From Acutalibacteraceae bacterium (GTDB lineage: Bacteria > Bacillota > Clostridia > Oscillospirales > Acutalibacteraceae): 64,000 nucleotides of DNA. A program made the translations under genes and the position numbers. The number at the start of each line of letters is the position of its first letter. Positions within the stretch are counted from its first letter, which is position 1. The notes beneath the pieces are model-generated. The model had not been told where the DNA came from. It did not search any database and was given only the letters and a program-made list of their open reading frames with translations. Positions 46,001 to 49,725 of the stretch are shown here, in pieces. The stretch lies in assembly GCA_045647525.1 (NCBI GenBank), contig JAZRMK010000048.1, positions 7,928-71,927 of the forward strand, written 5' to 3'.

Positions 46001-46192
46001 ATGACTCTTGAACAGAAAAAAGAAGCTTTGCGCAATGCAGCCTCAAAAGAGTTAAGTAGCGTGTATGACCTTTATAAATGGAAGAAAGTAAAGGGCTGTG
46101 AAAATTCATTCGTGTTAAGTGGAAAGTGTGGCTCGGAAGTACGCAAATCATATCTTGTTGGTTGCAATAAGTGGAGGTCAGTATATGGATAA
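46001..46192 (+). CDS. Small hypothetical protein (63 aa), apparently translationally coupled to the WYL-LRR gene
   Basis: RBS AGAGGGA upstream. The stop overlaps the downstream start in ATGGATAA. Confidence 0.5.
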   Translation: MTLEQKKEALRNAASKELSSVYDLYKWKKVKGCENSFVLSGKCGSEVRKSYLVGCNKWRSVYG

Positions 46193-48305
46193 AGTAGATA
46201 AATTTCAAAACGAAAGTGCATCAGAGGGAAATAGCGAAGATTCACTTTTTGCTATTTATATATTAAGCATTCTTAATAAATATAGTTCTCCCGATAATAA
46301 ATTGTCTTCTCAAGATGTGATGGATTATTTGAAAAAGGATTACTCTATCTGCGATTTAGATGAAGCGGATCCCAAACGAAAGAGAGTAATGGATGCCCAA
46401 CGAAAGAAAGTAAGAAGGCATCTCGATACGCTTTCTGAATCTTATTGGGGTGGATGTATTAAAAAGGAAGAGGGAAAAACAACGAGGGAAGGCCATAAAT
46501 GGTTTTATGATGTTTCCCGAGATAAATTTGCTGATAAAGAGGCCGTAATTCAAGAAACTCTTACCGAAACAGAAGTGGAGTTATTGGTTGATCTTATATC
46601 AGCGACGAAGATTCTTAATTCCGAAGGCACGCGAGGTTTAATAGATAAGCTTTTAAAGAAAACATCAATTACTAAAGAAGATAGAGAACTCAGATTGGGG
46701 AAAATTCAGAGAGAAGCATGGTTAAAAACACCTAATGAGGATCTTGTGGAAAAGAAAGACCTTATTGAAGAATGCTTTTATAACTCCAATTTAACTTTTG
46801 ATTACGAAGATGAAAAAACCATTACCGCAACTCCACTTGGTTGGAGTTATGATGATGGAATATGTTTTCTGAATGCCAAAGTCGGAAATGAACACCGTAA
46901 ATTTTCACTCGATAAAATACGAATTTGCGACCCTGATGTAGACGGATATGAAGAACCCGAAGATTTCAGACGTTATGACGAAGAAACAGATAGTGATAAG
47001 ACCACATTAGATAGTTTGTTTGTCAACATTCCTACGATTAAGGGCGCAATAGCAGATAAAAAATGTCTCCGTTTTCTGTACCGTTCTTATGTAGTTGCTA
47101 ATGGTCGAGTTGTTTCCGCAGATGAAGAGAAAAGTGTTTTACCGCACAGCCTTGTCTTTAACGATGGAAAATACTACCTGATTGGAATTGACGAGAATTC
47201 TCCGGAACTTAATAAAATTGCGTATTTCCGAGTTGACTTAATGTTCGAGCTGTATTGTGCAGAAACAAAAAACAAACTGTCGAATTGGGATAAGCACATT
47301 TTTGAGACAATAGAACGAGCAAGAGTGGTTGAGAAACACCCGTTAATGCTGGTTGGAAGCGAAATTCCGGTAACCTTTAAAGTTGTGGAATCTGCCCTTG
47401 ACAGAGTTATTGATGTTTTTGCAGTAACGCCTGATAAATTTGTTATTACAAAAGAAACCAGGATGGTTAAAGATTCTTCCGGAGAAGGTTTTCACGAAGA
47501 AAGGGTTGTAAGTGTTCAAGTCAGCACTACCATTGAAGAGGCATTTCGTTGGGCACTTGCAAACGCGGATGTGGTTGAAGTAACTTCGCAGGATGTTCGA
47601 GACAGGATAGCCCGAATTGCCGATCCTATTTATCAGTTGTATACTCAAACTCTATCTGATAAGGTTCGCGAAAACATAGACTATGTATTGAGAGAAGGCA
47701 CATTTAAGATATCTTACAAAGTAGATGCTAATACCGCGTATGCAACATACAAAGAGTTGGCCAAAATGGACAAATTAGGTGTGGTTGATAATATGGGTAT
47801 CGCAGACGATGATATTTGCGATGGCGTAGATTATTTTGGTGATTTTATCAACACTAATCGTTTAATAATATCTGCACCAAATCTTAAAAACATGTCATGG
47901 GCATCAAAATTGGTTAATGTTAAGAGTCTTAAACTGGAAAATTCACAAATCGAGGACATTTCGTGGATGAAGGAAATGAAAAAATTAAGACGCTTATATT
48001 TGGCAGAATCTTCTTTCTCAGACCTGTCAGTTTTAAGTGAGCACAAAGAAATAGATGCTCTCGACATTAGTGGCACAAATGTCAGCGATATCAGTTTCAT
48101 CGAAGATTTCCCGAAATTAACACAGTTACATATTGCTACGTGTCCAATTGAGGATTATTCACCCTTGTTTACAACAAAATCTTGTCTTAGGTATTTGGAA
48201 ATTGACAAAAAAGCACTGGAAGAAATCGGCGAGGATAACATCAGAAACCGTCATATAGGAATTGATATTAAAGTAACAAACAATTCCCCTTTTTGGTATT
48301 TATAG
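46185..48305 (+). CDS. Cytoplasmic wHTH - WYL - WYL - WCX-like - leucine-rich-repeat fusion protein
   Basis: GGAGG lies 7 nt before the ATG at 46185. The N-terminus is wHTH-like. Two WYL-like cores (...GWSYDDGICFLNAKVGNEHRKFSLDKIRI; ...LVFNDGKYYLIGID....IAYFRVDLM). A WCX-like segment (..AFRWALANADVVEVTS..VRDRI) is followed by about 6 22-residue LRRs. No signal peptide or TM helix. Confidence 0.75.
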   Translation: MDKVDKFQNESASEGNSEDSLFAIYILSILNKYSSPDNKLSSQDVMDYLKKDYSICDLDEADPKRKRVMDAQRKKVRRHLDTLSESYWGGCIKKEEGKTTREGHKWFYDVSRDKFADKEAVIQETLTETEVELLVDLISATKILNSEGTRGLIDKLLKKTSITKEDRELRLGKIQREAWLKTPNEDLVEKKDLIEECFYNSNLTFDYEDEKTITATPLGWSYDDGICFLNAKVGNEHRKFSLDKIRICDPDVDGYEEPEDFRRYDEETDSDKTTLDSLFVNIPTIKGAIADKKCLRFLYRSYVVANGRVVSADEEKSVLPHSLVFNDGKYYLIGIDENSPELNKIAYFRVDLMFELYCAETKNKLSNWDKHIFETIERARVVEKHPLMLVGSEIPVTFKVVESALDRVIDVFAVTPDKFVITKETRMVKDSSGEGFHEERVVSVQVSTTIEEAFRWALANADVVEVTSQDVRDRIARIADPIYQLYTQTLSDKVRENIDYVLREGTFKISYKVDANTAYATYKELAKMDKLGVVDNMGIADDDICDGVDYFGDFINTNRLIISAPNLKNMSWASKLVNVKSLKLENSQIEDISWMKEMKKLRRLYLAESSFSDLSVLSEHKEIDALDISGTNVSDISFIEDFPKLTQLHIATCPIEDYSPLFTTKSCLRYLEIDKKALEEIGEDNIRNRHIGIDIKVTNNSPFWYL

Positions 48306-48319
48306 AGCCAATAAACTTT

Positions 48320-48341
48320 AAAGGAGGCTTTTGCCTCCTTT
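48320..48341 (+). terminator. Intrinsic terminator
   Basis: AAAGGAGGC TTTT GCCTCCTTT followed by ATTTAT. Confidence 0.65.
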
Positions 48342-48366
48342 ATTTATAAAAACTCATTTATGTGGT

Positions 48367-48402
48367 TATAGCCCAAATTTAACCTGTTTGATTTTGTATT
48401 AT
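48367..48402 (+). promoter_or_regulatory. Island promoter motif copy 4: TATAGCCCAAATTTAACC, then an AT-rich -10 region
   Basis: The first 17 nt match copy 1 except for one position. The -10 (TGTATTAT region) is less clear. Confidence 0.4.
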
Positions 48403-48465
48403 TTCTATGTAAGGTTTGAGAACCGGTATAACAAATAATTTAAAATATAGGAAAGTAATTCGGTG

Positions 48466-49725
48466 ATGAAAATGAAATATAAACAGCTTTTTGAAAAAGC
48501 ATATTCTCGTTTAAATGAACTTTATGGCGGAGAATATTCTACACCTGACATTACCATTTTGAGTCGCTTCTATCGAGAAAAAATGATTCTTGGCGAGAGT
48601 GATTTTTATATGCGTTACCTTGATTTTCTGAGTAGAGTCAGGGAAACAGCAAATCAAAAAGGCGAGCATATTTTTGTCAGAGGATCAGCGGGATCATCTT
48701 TTATTGCATATCTTTTGGGGGCAACAGATATCAACCCTTTGCCAAGACATGAGTACTGTCCACATTGTCACGCGACTAAATTTATCGGAACCGGCACTCC
48801 ATTTGATAAGGCTCCGATAAGATGCTCTTGCGGAGCAGAGATCGAAACTGACGGTCATAATCTTCCGTTTGAGTCAAACCTTAAAAGTATATTGTCAGAA
48901 CGTATTCAGGTCTGTGTTTCCCACGCATTCTTTGACGAGGCGAAAACTATGATTCGTGACGAATTGTGGGACAAGGCGATTGTCACACTGACAGATGGAG
49001 ATATTTCGCCCACGTGGTTCTGTATTCTCGATAAGGAGACCAATGAGTGTGGCGATTATTCGTTGAATGGGAACCGAGAGATTTTTGCAAACTTTCCAAG
49101 AATTACGCTTGTGCCTAAAAACGCGCTCGACAAATACCGTGAAATTGAAAAGGCTACGGGTTTCAAAATGAAAGATATTGGGTTCAATGAACAAAGTCTT
49201 GCGTTTTTTCATTTTATGGAATTTGATATTGAAGGCGTACCTTACTTCGACAATGACTTTATAAAGGATATTTGGAATACAATAAATCCGCAAAGTTATG
49301 ATGCTCTATTAAAACTTATAGGATTTGCTCATTCGACTAATATTTGGAAGAACAATGCGGAAACACTTTTTAATGAGCATAGACTCTCCCTTCGTGAGAT
49401 TCCGGCATTCAGAGAAGAACTGTACGATATGATCAGTGAGCGTCTGCGCCTACATGGCGTTCGTGATGAAGGATTTGCTTATGAGGTAACAGATAAAGCA
49501 ATGCGAGGCCATTATGCCAAAACCGGAGGCGTTGACGAAGACACGGTGCTTGGTTTGTTAAGCATTGGTTTTGATATGGATTTTGTATTTTTCCTTTCTG
49601 AGATTAACTATATGTTTACGAAAGCAGAGGGAGTTACATATTTGCGTGAAGCGATTGCAATGATGTTTTACAAGATTAAATTTAATAAAGAGTATAATGA
49701 AATTATGTTGGCAAAAGCGGAATGA
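48466..49725 (+). CDS. Stand-alone PolC-core-like protein (C-family polymerase palm/Zn-finger region), predicted catalytically inactive
   Basis: VRGSAGSSFIAYLLGATDINPLPRHEYCPHCHA...IRCSCGAEIETDGHNLPFES parallels PolC GSRGSVGSS.VA...ITEVNPLPPHY.CP.C...CP.CG...KDG.DIPFETF. Later, LIGFAHSTNIWKNNAE and INYMFTKAEGVTY parallel ISGLSHGTDVWLGNAQ and IKYMFPKAHAAAY. The PDIDLNF and LGHDDPT positions are not conserved. Confidence 0.7.
   Translation: MKMKYKQLFEKAYSRLNELYGGEYSTPDITILSRFYREKMILGESDFYMRYLDFLSRVRETANQKGEHIFVRGSAGSSFIAYLLGATDINPLPRHEYCPHCHATKFIGTGTPFDKAPIRCSCGAEIETDGHNLPFESNLKSILSERIQVCVSHAFFDEAKTMIRDELWDKAIVTLTDGDISPTWFCILDKETNECGDYSLNGNREIFANFPRITLVPKNALDKYREIEKATGFKMKDIGFNEQSLAFFHFMEFDIEGVPYFDNDFIKDIWNTINPQSYDALLKLIGFAHSTNIWKNNAETLFNEHRLSLREIPAFREELYDMISERLRLHGVRDEGFAYEVTDKAMRGHYAKTGGVDEDTVLGLLSIGFDMDFVFFLSEINYMFTKAEGVTYLREAIAMMFYKIKFNKEYNEIMLAKAE

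What the first reader, a model, noticed from the sequence alone, without database searches (positions are those of the whole stretch)
46001..49725. Candidate novel module: small ORF, wHTH-WYL-WYL-WCX-LRR protein and a catalytically dead PolC-core homologue
Three co-oriented genes sit at the distal end of a tRNA-linked AT-rich island.
- A 63-aa ORF overlaps the start of a 706-aa cytoplasmic protein in ATGGATAA.
- That protein combines a wHTH, two WYL-like domains, a WCX-like segment and about six leucine-rich repeats.
- After a terminator and an island-type promoter comes a 420-aa stand-alone homologue of the PolC polymerase core.

WYL proteins are known ligand- or ssDNA-sensing regulators of defence and DNA-damage systems (BrxR, CapW, PafBC, DriD, type VI-D WYL1). 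LRRs are classic sensor or protein-binding modules. I do not recall any described system with either this domain fusion or this gene pairing. A sensor/regulator next to a polymerase mimic is the sort of arrangement seen in defence, anti-defence or damage-tolerance cassettes. The functional link between the genes is inferred from adjacency only.
Basis: partly seen in the sequence, partly recalled or inferred. Interest (0 to 1): 0.72.

Follow-up and report, generated by a model that had tools for sequence, protein, structure and literature searches.

The report
WYL-LRR regulator beside dead PolC-core protein
A small accessory island in a gut Clostridia chromosome carries a WYL-type DNA-binding regulator with a leucine-rich-repeat sensor end, next to a well-conserved but catalytically dead copy of the core of the replicative polymerase PolC; both belong to undescribed protein families, but they look like neighbouring cassettes with a shared promoter type, not a fixed two-gene machine.

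Summary
The sequence features are real. B (46185-48305, 706 aa) is wHTH-WYL-WCX with about 6-7 internalin-type LRRs. C (48466/48463-49725) folds like the PolC palm-Zn-finger-fingers core (TM about 0.8). C has lost all three catalytic aspartates, the thumb region and everything outside the core. It is under purifying selection (dN/dS about 0.1).

The 63-aa ORF A exists and overlaps B in ATGGATAA, but syntenic loci lack it. The conserved small gene before B is a 53-aa gene at 45679-45840, outside the reported span.

B and C share a contig in at least 19 lineages. The whole island is syntenic in those cases. Other genes can sit between B and C, C occurs without B (3 loci) and B without C (2 loci).

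New here:
- A conserved island promoter (GTCCAAATTTGTCC box at the -35 position plus an extended -10) flanks B in B-bearing loci and drives C.
- C belongs to a large family of dead PolC-core proteins, many fused to XRE HTH domains.
- In two loci C directly precedes an SNF2-MoxR-VWA-ligase cluster.

Best reading: B regulates island promoters and C is a non-catalytic binding or adaptor protein carried as cargo. C's function is untested.

The parts
42184..42471 (.). Two 90-nt direct repeats (42184-42273 and 42382-42471, 99% identical). The first starts in the 3' end of tRNA-Gln. This att-like duplication marks the proximal edge of the island.
42573..42616 (+). Island-type promoter copy 1: box TAGCCCAAATTTATCC, then 12 nt, then extended -10 TGTTATAAT.
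42663..42770 (+). 35-aa basic peptide ORF downstream of promoter copy 1. A similar 40-aa ORF follows a box promoter in L085.
43140..43418 (+). PcfJ-like fragment (92 aa, matching profile positions 71-140 of 147). A full 179-aa PcfJ-like gene is present in syntenic locus L001.
43563..44219 (+). 218-aa island gene of unknown function, syntenic in L001, L081, L085 and L105 (74-83% identity).
44901..45548 (+). 215-aa island gene. It shares an 86-nt 5' leader with the 53-aa gene, and a weaker box copy lies at 44825-44837. A paralogue sits inside the SNF2-ligase cluster of L082 and L114.
45600..45643 (+). Island-type promoter copy 2 (TAGTCCAAATTTATCC, then 12 nt, then TGATATAAT), upstream of the 53-aa gene. 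The same position is occupied in L081, L085, L105 and L110.
45679..45840 (+). Conserved 53-aa gene (MKTYKIVYTIANQ...). It precedes B in every B-bearing locus that extends upstream of B. It belongs to a 96-member 90%-identity cluster, with dN/dS 0.02-0.10.
45907..45922 (-). Inverted copy of the box, between the 53-aa gene and B. An inverted copy is at the equivalent place in L085 and L086. Candidate operator.
46001..46192 (+). ORF A, 63 aa, overlapping B's start in ATGGATAA. It is lineage-specific and a doubtful gene.
46185..48305 (+). Gene B, 706 aa. Layout: wHTH (about 17-110), helical region, WYL-like beta domain (about 200-248), WYL (about 280-360), WCX-like (about 393-467), helical linker, then 6-7 internalin-type 22-residue LRRs (about 536-700).
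48319..48342 (.). GC-rich 10-bp hairpin after B. Probable terminator, with an imperfect T tail on the + strand.
48369..48412 (+). Island-type promoter copy 3 (TAGCCCAAATTTAACC, then TGTATTAT), directly downstream of B and upstream of C. A box holds the same slot after B in L001, L081, L082, L085, L089 and L110, whatever gene follows.
48463..49725 (+). Gene C, 417-420 aa (ATG at 48466 or 48472 more likely than GTG at 48463). It is an inactivated PolC core: N-terminal helices, GS motif, Cys4 zinc finger (C99, C102, C121, C123), a palm without the three aspartates, and fingers with the YMF(P/T)KA motif. It has no PHP, exonuclease, thumb-region KRTTGQHPGG loop, clamp-binding or HhH parts.

Best explanation
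The span is the distal part of a roughly 7.5-kb mosaic accessory island (about 42.47-49.8 kb). The island is inserted next to tRNA-Gln in the chromosome of a spore-forming Clostridia bacterium; the closest genome hit is an Acutalibacteraceae MAG.

The island is a string of co-oriented cassettes. Several of them are driven by one conserved promoter type: a GTCCAAATTTGTCC-like box in place of a -35 element, then 12 nt, then an extended -10.

Gene B is a DriD/PafBC/BrxR-like wHTH-WYL-WCX transcription factor that has gained a C-terminal internalin-type LRR domain. I infer that B binds the box, which flanks its own 53-aa-gene/B unit on both sides. B would thereby gate island promoters, including the one before C. 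The fast-evolving LRR would act as a protein- or ligand-recognition input, in addition to whatever the WYL domain senses.

Gene C is shown to be a stable, selected, non-catalytic derivative of the PolC palm-zinc-finger-fingers core. I infer that it works by binding (a nucleotide, a DNA structure or a partner protein) as a sensor or adaptor. This is analogous to other dead polymerases such as ImuB. It fits the fact that many of C's relatives carry an N-terminal XRE HTH.

B and C are therefore regulator and cargo in the same island, not obligate partners. ORF A is not part of the conserved unit.
For: Shown:
- B's domain architecture.
- The LRR is the least conserved folded domain of B: 0.48 mean pairwise identity against 0.64-0.68 for HTH, WYL and WCX.
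- C's fold and loss of DxD plus the third D.
- Purifying selection on C (dN/dS 0.09-0.11), B (0.19-0.29) and the 53-aa gene (0.02-0.10).
- More than 110 full-length C homologues and more than 169 B homologues.
- Three exact box copies on the + strand inside the island, and none with a matching -10 element elsewhere in the 64-kb window.
- The box is present in all 8 B-bearing loci. It typically lies before the 53-aa gene and directly after B. The strict pattern gives 3 background hits in 1.43 Mb.
- The 18-site consensus is taTaGtCCaAAtTTgtCCtAAT..attTggTAtaAT.
- The island is syntenic with L001, L081 and L085.
- The dead PolC core is fused to XRE HTH or FtsK-gamma DNA-binding domains in many 50%-identity clusters.
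- The flanking genes are chromosomal sporulation genes.

Inferred:
- That B binds the box.
- That the LRR is a sensor.
- That C binds rather than catalyses.
Against: - No direct evidence links B to the box. A box with a -10 also heads the C-containing operon of L114, which has no B orthologue within 21 kb. An alternative sigma factor or another regulator could read it.
- L105 has no box after B.
- The B-less loci that lack the box (L087, L109) are also the most diverged, so relatedness confounds the association.
- C keeps the RGxxGSSF and YMFPKAH motifs of active polymerases. That could reflect fold constraints rather than ligand binding.
- Nothing here shows what C binds.
- The mobile element behind the island is unidentified. 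There is no integrase, relaxase or phage structural gene in the window island or in the fetched flanks.
Confidence: 0.45

Rival explanations
1. B and C, with or without a small ORF, form a dedicated two-component system. B senses an invader or DNA damage, and the polymerase mimic C is its specific effector in a defence, anti-defence or damage-tolerance cassette.
For: - B and C share a contig in at least 19 distinct lineages, over B identities of 50-100% and C identities of 52-100%.
- The slot directly after B always starts with the island promoter and most often holds C.
- Island neighbours include conflict-type genes: PARG plus nucleotidyltransferase, ADP-ribosylglycohydrolase, HAD_SAK RNA-repair domain, BspA-type LRR proteins and Sel1.
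Against: - C occurs without B in L087, L109 and L114. B occurs without C in L105 and L110.
- There is a hairpin and a separate promoter between the two genes.
- Unrelated genes are inserted between them in L081 and L082.
- The whole island is equally syntenic.
- No PADLOC system matches.
- No relative of B was found in IMG/VR viral contigs.
- Phage and plasmid records gave no close relative of C, only weak (20-36% identity) PolC-type matches.
Confidence: 0.2
2. C is the non-catalytic subunit or adaptor of a DNA-processing machine encoded by the full-length element (SNF2-family helicase, MoxR AAA+, DUF2201/VWA protein, NAD-dependent DNA ligase). Its role would be comparable to ImuB in the ImuA-ImuB-DnaE2 mutasome. 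In this window C is an orphan left after loss of that cluster.
For: - In L082 and L114, C is followed after 13-15 nt by the same five-gene cluster. The cluster is 74-87% identical for four of its genes and 49% for the 190-aa gene, although the two C proteins are only 54% identical.
- In L087 and L114 the upstream 153-aa phosphatase-like gene overlaps C's start, which suggests operon membership.
Against: - The cluster is absent from the window, L001, L081, L085, L087 and L109. In those loci C is still intact and, where measured, under strong purifying selection. C must therefore have a function without the cluster.
- Only 2 of 9 examined contexts show the cluster.
Confidence: 0.15
3. The island is a poly-immunity or counter-attack locus. 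C is a decoy or immunity protein that soaks up a toxin, phage protein or inhibitor aimed at the host PolC. B is an unrelated regulator.
For: - The neighbourhoods are rich in small co-oriented genes and in repair or reversal enzymes (PARG, ARH, RtcB, HAD_SAK, ligase) and repeat proteins (Sel1, LRR_5).
- C preserves PolC's surface fold (TM about 0.8) while losing chemistry.
Against: - No toxin gene or secretion-system context was seen in the loci.
- The many HTH-fused relatives sit in ordinary chromosomal contexts. That argues for a sensing or regulatory use of the domain rather than a decoy role.
- The idea is purely contextual.
Confidence: 0.1
4. C is a decaying fragment (pseudogene) of polC captured by the island, and ORF A and B are unrelated.
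For: C covers only part of PolC and lacks all catalytic residues.
Against: - dN/dS is about 0.1.
- There are more than 100 homologues of the same length, with conserved motifs and a conserved zinc finger.
- The model has pLDDT 94.
- The same deletions are shared across the family.
Confidence: 0.02

Closest known systems
WYL-domain transcription factors (DriD, PafBC, BrxR, CapW; HTH-WYL-WCX architecture)
   Same: B has an N-terminal winged HTH, a Pfam WYL domain and a WCX-like C-terminal extension. Foldseek matches DriD and PafBC structures. B sits next to variable accessory genes, as BrxR and CapW do (that comparison is from general knowledge). A conserved DNA box flanks its gene.
   Different: B is about twice the size. 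It has an extra WYL-like beta domain and a C-terminal internalin-type LRR domain of 6-7 repeats. I found that fusion in no paper. The downstream cargo is not a known defence system. The ligand, DNA site and direction of regulation are all untested.
PolC (Gram-positive replicative C-family DNA polymerase; PDB 3F2B, 9QPC)
   Same: C shares the palm and fingers fold (TM 0.80-0.82), the GS motif (RGSAGSS), the Cys4 zinc finger and the YMFPKAH fingers motif.
   Different: C has no catalytic aspartates: PDIDLNF becomes IQVCV and KLDILG becomes RITLVP. It has no KRTTGQHPGG loop and several internal deletions. It lacks the N-terminal, OB, PHP, exonuclease, clamp-binding and HhH domains. It is only about 417 aa, against about 1450.
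[quoted passage not shown]
   Same: A polymerase fold is retained under selection without active-site residues, so the protein presumably acts by binding. In two loci C sits in an operon with DNA-processing enzymes.
   Different: ImuB is Y-family, has a clamp-binding motif and has defined partners. C is C-family and has no recognisable clamp motif or known partner. The 2026 census of bacterial polymerases lists only PolC and DnaE1-3 for the C family and no inactivated group.
XRE-HTH proteins fused to the same dead PolC core (for example P0115, P0248, P0249; annotated only as 'helix-turn-helix domain-containing protein')
   Same: They share the inactivated core, with the zinc finger, GS and YLFPKAH motifs kept and DxD/D lost.
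   Different: They carry an N-terminal DNA-binding domain and lie in ordinary chromosomal neighbourhoods. C is stand-alone and island-borne.

Membership tests
WYL-domain transcription factors (HTH-WYL-WCX) | WYL domain detectable by profile | tested here: met
   Pfam PF13280 scores 36.5 bits against a cut-off of 21.8, at residues 282-354. PADLOC WYL PDLC01652 gives E 4e-19 at residues 281-479.
WYL-domain transcription factors (HTH-WYL-WCX) | N-terminal (winged) HTH DNA-binding domain | tested here: met
   The AF2 model has H18-33, H42-53 and H63-86 plus a two-strand wing at 92-108, with pLDDT about 80-89. Foldseek aligns full-length DriD (8tp8, 8tpk) and PafBC (9fnd) over more than 460 columns. 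No Pfam HTH family reached E 0.1.
WYL-domain transcription factors (HTH-WYL-WCX) | WCX-type C-terminal extension after the WYL domain | tested here: inconclusive
   The PADLOC profile match runs to residue 479, and Foldseek hits the DriD C-domain (7tzv, 9cu3). Model confidence there is only about 70-78, and there is no dedicated WCX profile hit.
WYL-domain transcription factors (HTH-WYL-WCX) | Binds a specific operator and regulates adjacent genes in response to a ligand | not testable with these tools
   There is only indirect support. The conserved GTCCAAATTTGTCC box flanks B in B-bearing loci.
C-family DNA polymerase (PolC) | Three catalytic acidic residues in the palm (DxD plus a third D) | tested here: not met
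   Alignment with five real PolCs shows PDIDLNF replaced by --IQVCV and KLDILG by RITLVP. The same loss is seen across the family.
C-family DNA polymerase (PolC) | Palm and fingers fold homologous to Pol III alpha | tested here: met
   Foldseek E 4e-20 and TM 0.80-0.82 to 3f2b and 9qpc. phmmer E 2e-32. Pfam DNA_pol3_alpha scores 34 bits against a cut-off of 23.9.
C-family DNA polymerase (PolC) | PHP, exonuclease, OB, clamp-binding and HhH duplex-binding domains | tested here: not met
   The protein spans only PolC residues about 853-1321 in 9qpc numbering, with internal deletions. No other Pfam domains were found.
Known anti-phage defence systems (PADLOC-DB 2.0) | Match to a system-specific protein model | tested here: not met
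   B matches only generic cas-associated WYL models. C, ORF A and five neighbouring genes have no hits.
Internalin-type leucine-rich repeat domains | Tandem 22-residue LRRs detectable by profile and fold | tested here: met
   Pfam LRR_4 scores 42 bits against a cut-off of 27. The family profile matches Internalin A at E 5e-45. Foldseek gives E 3e-9 to InlA and InlB. Strands are spaced 22 residues apart from 559 to 670.

The most novel reading that the evidence does not exclude
Dead PolC-core proteins are an undescribed superfamily of sensor or adaptor modules derived from the replicative polymerase. They occur stand-alone in mobile islands or fused to XRE HTH domains. In this island they would be deployed under a WYL-LRR regulator that reads an island-specific promoter box. 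Together these would make a new kind of regulated conflict or replication-interference system in gut Clostridia.
Probability: 0.3. Interest if true: 0.75.

Novelty: new variant of a known kind. Interest (0 to 1): 0.55.

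Why it matters
Inactivated polymerase homologues are known for the Y, B and X families. The 2026 census of bacterial polymerases reports none for the C family.

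Here a dead PolC core is shown to be a large family under purifying selection. It is repeatedly fused to DNA-binding domains. This points to a reuse of the replicase core for sensing or scaffolding.

The WYL-LRR fusion adds a new input domain to a regulator class that is central to DNA-damage and defence control. The conserved island promoter box gives a directly testable regulon.

If C interferes with or reports on replication, it would be a new way for mobile islands in gut Firmicutes to interact with the host replisome.

Tried and rejected
- The genome-contig scan with the C alignment was swamped by genuine polC genes, because the back-translated patterns LLGATDINP and YMFPKAHG are shared.
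- Viral contigs with the B alignment gave no relative.
- Metagenome contigs with B gave 16 mostly short or distant loci and no usable context.
- tblastn of C against phage and plasmid records found no close relative. Nearly all matches have the two-segment pattern of full-length PolC, or lie under polC annotations, in records that look like host contamination or chromosomes. A few single-piece weak matches (H22, H24, H30) were not followed up.
- Foldseek against viral structures found only full-length phage Pol III alpha, with lower TM (0.64 or less).
- PADLOC and PHROGs gave nothing specific.
- Rfam found only the two tRNAs in 41.5-51.5 kb.
- Literature searches for WYL plus LRR, PolC plus WYL, and inactive C-family polymerases found nothing relevant. 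A 'PcfJ' search returned only C. elegans pCFJ plasmids.
- The window's own C protein could not be traced to a contig.
- Rejected: C as a pseudogene.
- Rejected: ORF A as a conserved module member.
- Rejected: the 304-aa (L082) and 120-aa (L081) genes between B and C as further PolC-like copies.
- Rejected: a third copy of the att-like repeat at the distal end of the island.

Full report
**1. What is in the sequence**

ORF listing shows three co-oriented ORFs: A at 46001-46192 (63 aa), B at 46185-48305 (706 aa from the ATG) and C at 48463-49725 (420 aa from a GTG).
- A's TAA stop overlaps B's ATG in ATGGATAA, and a GGAGG lies 8 nt before B's ATG.
- A GC-rich 10-bp hairpin follows B at 48319-48342. 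The terminator scan accepted it only on the minus strand, because the + strand tail is TTTATTTAT.
- NCBI calls B with exactly this 706-aa sequence and calls C as 419 aa. Homologues of C start at the equivalent of 48472.
- The region lies in a low-GC stretch: 0.35-0.40 for 43-50 kb against about 0.42-0.48 around it.
- It is downstream of tRNA-His (42026-42102) and tRNA-Gln (42127-42201).
- A 90-nt direct repeat (42184-42273 and 42382-42471, 99% identical) begins inside the 3' end of tRNA-Gln. This looks like an att-type duplication. No third copy marks the distal end.
- Flanking genes are chromosomal: YqfD, PhoH and SpoIIE. The host is therefore a spore-forming Clostridia bacterium. The closest genome locus, L001, is an Acutalibacteraceae MAG.

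**2. Gene B**

- Pfam finds WYL (36.5 bits, cut-off 21.8, residues 282-354) and LRR_4 (42 bits, cut-off 27).
- PADLOC's generic cas-associated WYL profiles match twice: residues 95-263 (E 1e-5) and 281-479 (E 4e-19).
- An AF2 model built on 98 homologues has pLDDT 73.5 and pTM 0.40, so the domains are reliable but their mutual arrangement is not. It shows the following:
  - a winged HTH at about 17-108;
  - a helical region;
  - a small beta domain at 203-247;
  - a long helix;
  - the WYL beta barrel at 294-359;
  - an alpha/beta WCX-like unit at 394-466;
  - a helical linker;
  - beta strands every 22 residues from 536 to 698.
- Foldseek returns internalins (E about 3e-9) and the WYL regulators DriD and PafBC (E about 4e-8 to 8e-8).
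- A family profile hits Internalin A at E 5e-45.

The first WYL-like domain and the WCX are the weaker calls.

Across 98 homologues the LRR is the most variable folded domain: 0.48 mean pairwise identity against 0.64-0.68 for HTH, WYL and WCX.

**3. Gene C**

- phmmer matches PolC structures in two blocks. Query 8-140 aligns to 9qpc 853-985, and query 257-408 to 1174-1321 (E 2e-32).
- The AF2 model is very confident (pLDDT 94, pTM 0.92). It superposes on PolC with TM 0.80-0.82.
- Phage Pol III alpha models match less well (TM 0.64 or less), and none is a 400-aa protein.
- Alignment with five genuine PolCs taken from fetched loci shows:
  - the DxD strand PDIDLNFSG is replaced by --IQVCVSH;
  - the third-aspartate strand KLDILGHD is replaced by RITLVPKN;
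  - the KRTTGQHPGG loop and three other segments are deleted;
  - the protein ends before the clamp-binding and HhH parts.
- Retained features are RGSAGSS (the GS motif), the Cys4 zinc finger (C99, C102, C121, C123; nearly invariant) and the fingers motif YMF(P/T)KA.
- It is not a decaying fragment. More than 110 homologues have the same length, and dN/dS is 0.09-0.11.

**4. ORF A**

- tblastn of A against all syntenic loci finds nothing, while every other island gene is found.
- The 5.8-billion-protein search gives four relatives at 87-97% identity on contigs of 606-1814 bp. Their lengths (42-80 aa) and C-termini differ.
- In L081 and L085 the gap between the preceding small gene and B is only 135-166 nt, against 345 nt here. 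So A lies in a lineage-specific insertion.
- The conserved small gene is the 53-aa ORF at 45679-45840. It is the 68-aa ORF read from its internal ATG.
- That gene precedes B in L001, L081, L082, L085, L090, L105 and L110. It sits in a 96-member 90%-identity cluster whose contigs match those of B homologues. Its dN/dS is 0.02-0.10.

**5. Do B and C travel together?**

- Identical longest-contig lengths link 16 C clusters to B clusters. Examples are 127767, 14259, 12945, 15503, 40289, 11896 and 11580.
- Loci L001, L082 and L085 add three more.
- Spacing varies. B and C are adjacent in the window, L001 and L085. Two genes lie between them in L081, and one of those is a diverged PolC-like N-terminal fragment. 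One 304-aa gene lies between them in L082.
- C is found without B in L087, L109 and L114. B is found without C in L105 and L110.
- The other island genes (218-aa, 97-aa, 215-aa, 53-aa, PcfJ-like) are equally syntenic in L001, L081 and L085.

I conclude that the pairing reflects island synteny plus, possibly, regulation. It does not look like an obligate two-gene machine.

**6. A shared promoter type**

- Repeat finding showed three copies of a 57-nt element and an 86-nt repeated leader.
- The core TAGYCCAAATTTAWCC occurs three times exactly on the + strand (42573, 45600, 48369). It occurs once inverted, with 3 mismatches, at 45907-45922 between the 53-aa gene and ORF A/B.
- In each forward copy the box is followed after 12 nt by an extended -10 (TGnTATAAT). 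The box therefore sits where a -35 element would be.
- The same arrangement is present in every B-bearing locus. It typically occurs once before the 53-aa gene and once right after B, whatever gene follows.
- L085 and L086 also have the inverted copy before B.
- Background is 3 strict hits in 1.43 Mb of unrelated Firmicute loci. The loose pattern gives 0.2 hits per 10 kb.
- The 18-site consensus is taTaGtCCaAAtTTgtCCtAAT..attTggTAtaAT.
- The box is absent from the C-only loci L087 and L109. One copy does head the C operon in L114, which lacks a B orthologue within 21 kb.

This is the best available functional link. B, a DriD/PafBC-type factor, may act on these promoters, including C's. That is inference. 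An alternative sigma factor or another regulator is not excluded.

**7. The wider family of C**

- An exhaustive profile search of 1.84 billion representatives gave 2705 hits at E 1e-3 or better and 713 at 1e-30 or better.
- Among the best 150 are many 470-520-aa proteins. Pfam shows the four sampled ones to be XRE HTH_3 plus the PolC core. The list also contains one FtsK-gamma fusion and one tandem duplication.
- A table of the catalytic columns shows that the stand-alone and HTH-fused proteins lack DxD, the third D and the KRTTGQHPGG loop. They keep RGxxG(S/A)SF and Y(M/L)FPKAH.
- PHP-containing proteins of 700-1300 aa in the same list keep the catalytic residues and are presumably active polymerases.
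- HTH-fused members lie in ordinary chromosomal contexts.
- NCBI names these proteins only as hypothetical, 'WYL domain-containing' or 'helix-turn-helix domain-containing'.
- Two systematic surveys of C-family polymerases list only PolC and DnaE1-3, with no inactivated group.

**8. A second context for C**

- In L082 and L114, C is followed after 13-15 nt by five genes: an SNF2-family 1209-aa protein, a MoxR-type AAA+ protein, a DUF2201/VWA protein, a 190-aa paralogue of the window's 215-aa gene, and an NAD-dependent DNA ligase.
- Four of these genes are 74-87% identical between the two loci and the 190-aa gene is 49% identical, while C is only 54% identical.
- In L087 and L114 a 153-aa phosphatase-like gene overlaps C's start.
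- The window lacks all of this and C is the last island gene, as in L081, L085 and L109.

**9. Island character**

- Related islands carry a PARG plus nucleotidyltransferase fusion, ADP-ribosylglycohydrolase, a HAD_SAK RNA-repair domain, BspA-type LRR proteins, Sel1, DUF2779, DUF1810, TraX and PcfJ-like genes.
- No integrase, relaxase or phage structural gene was seen in the fetched flanks.
- B has no relative in IMG/VR. C has no close relative in phage or plasmid records.
- The parent element is therefore unidentified. The content suggests a conflict-related accessory island.

**10. Verdict**

- Observation: largely real. ORF A is demoted, and a conserved 53-aa gene plus a promoter box are added.
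- Interpretation: partly supported. The domain calls are right and no described system matches. The evidence favours 'regulator plus cargo cassettes in a mosaic island' over a dedicated three-gene module.
- Mechanism I commit to, at moderate confidence: B gates box promoters in response to signals read by its WYL and LRR domains. C is a non-catalytic PolC-derived binding protein acting as a sensor or adaptor.
- Novelty: a new variant of known kinds, namely a WYL regulator with a new input domain and the first C-family example I could find of a dead polymerase family.
- Interest: 0.55.

Noticed in passing
window 42184-42273 and 42382-42471: A 90-nt direct repeat (99% identical). Its first copy starts in the 3' end of tRNA-Gln. 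Only 108 nt of GC-rich sequence lies between the copies. It looks like an att duplication left by an integration or excision event. No matching copy was found at the distal end of the island.
   Followed up: partly
window 42663-42770; L085 1638-1760: A conserved tiny basic peptide ORF (35 aa, MAKTKSGKKFVRIGGYTKSNGG...; 40 aa in L085). In both loci it lies directly downstream of an island-type box promoter at the proximal end of the island.
   Followed up: partly
window 44826-44911 and 45604-45689: An 86-nt repeated promoter and leader module (83% identical). It includes a GTCCACAGGAC hairpin, the RBS and the first codons (MKTY) of two unrelated genes, the 215-aa gene and the 53-aa gene.
   Followed up: no
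window 43140-43418: A truncated PcfJ-like ORF (92 aa, the C-terminal half of the Pfam model). The syntenic locus L001 has a full 179-aa copy. This hints that the island descends from a conjugative-element-like region.
   Followed up: partly
L082 11262-19988; L114 11149-19918: A conserved cluster of an SNF2-family 1209-aa protein, a MoxR AAA+ protein, a DUF2201/VWA protein, a 190-aa protein and an NAD-dependent DNA ligase. It lies immediately downstream of the C homologue. Its function and the element it belongs to are unknown.
   Followed up: partly
L081 8903-9421: The 172-aa gene between B and C has weak similarity to the N-terminal part of the PolC-like family (Pfam DNA_pol3_alpha E 1e-4; hhalign E 4e-5). 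It may be a second, truncated and diverged paralogue.
   Followed up: partly
P0247, P0248, P0249, P0259, P0285, P0287: The dead PolC core is fused to XRE HTH_3 in many clusters. It is fused once to an FtsK-gamma winged helix and occurs once as a tandem duplication. PHP-containing proteins of 700-1000 aa in the same hit list keep the catalytic aspartates, and one has an N-terminal DnaB_C domain.
   Followed up: partly
Alignment A2, last about 20 residues of B homologues: The B family has two alternative C-terminal tails (…HIGIDIKVTNNSPFWYL versus …HPDAVIKVQQKIDNRKV). They co-vary with blocks of differences in the LRR region, which suggests two LRR subtypes.
   Followed up: no
window 49845-50495: A 216-aa predicted lipoprotein (signal peptide ending in a Cys) with several CxxCxGxG zinc-finger-like repeats. 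It lies just after the island and is followed by a strong 20-bp-stem terminator at 50512-50554. It has only weak PHROG hits.
   Followed up: no
L107 and L108: One HTH-fused dead PolC-core gene lies directly downstream of comEC in two independent metagenome contigs.
   Followed up: no
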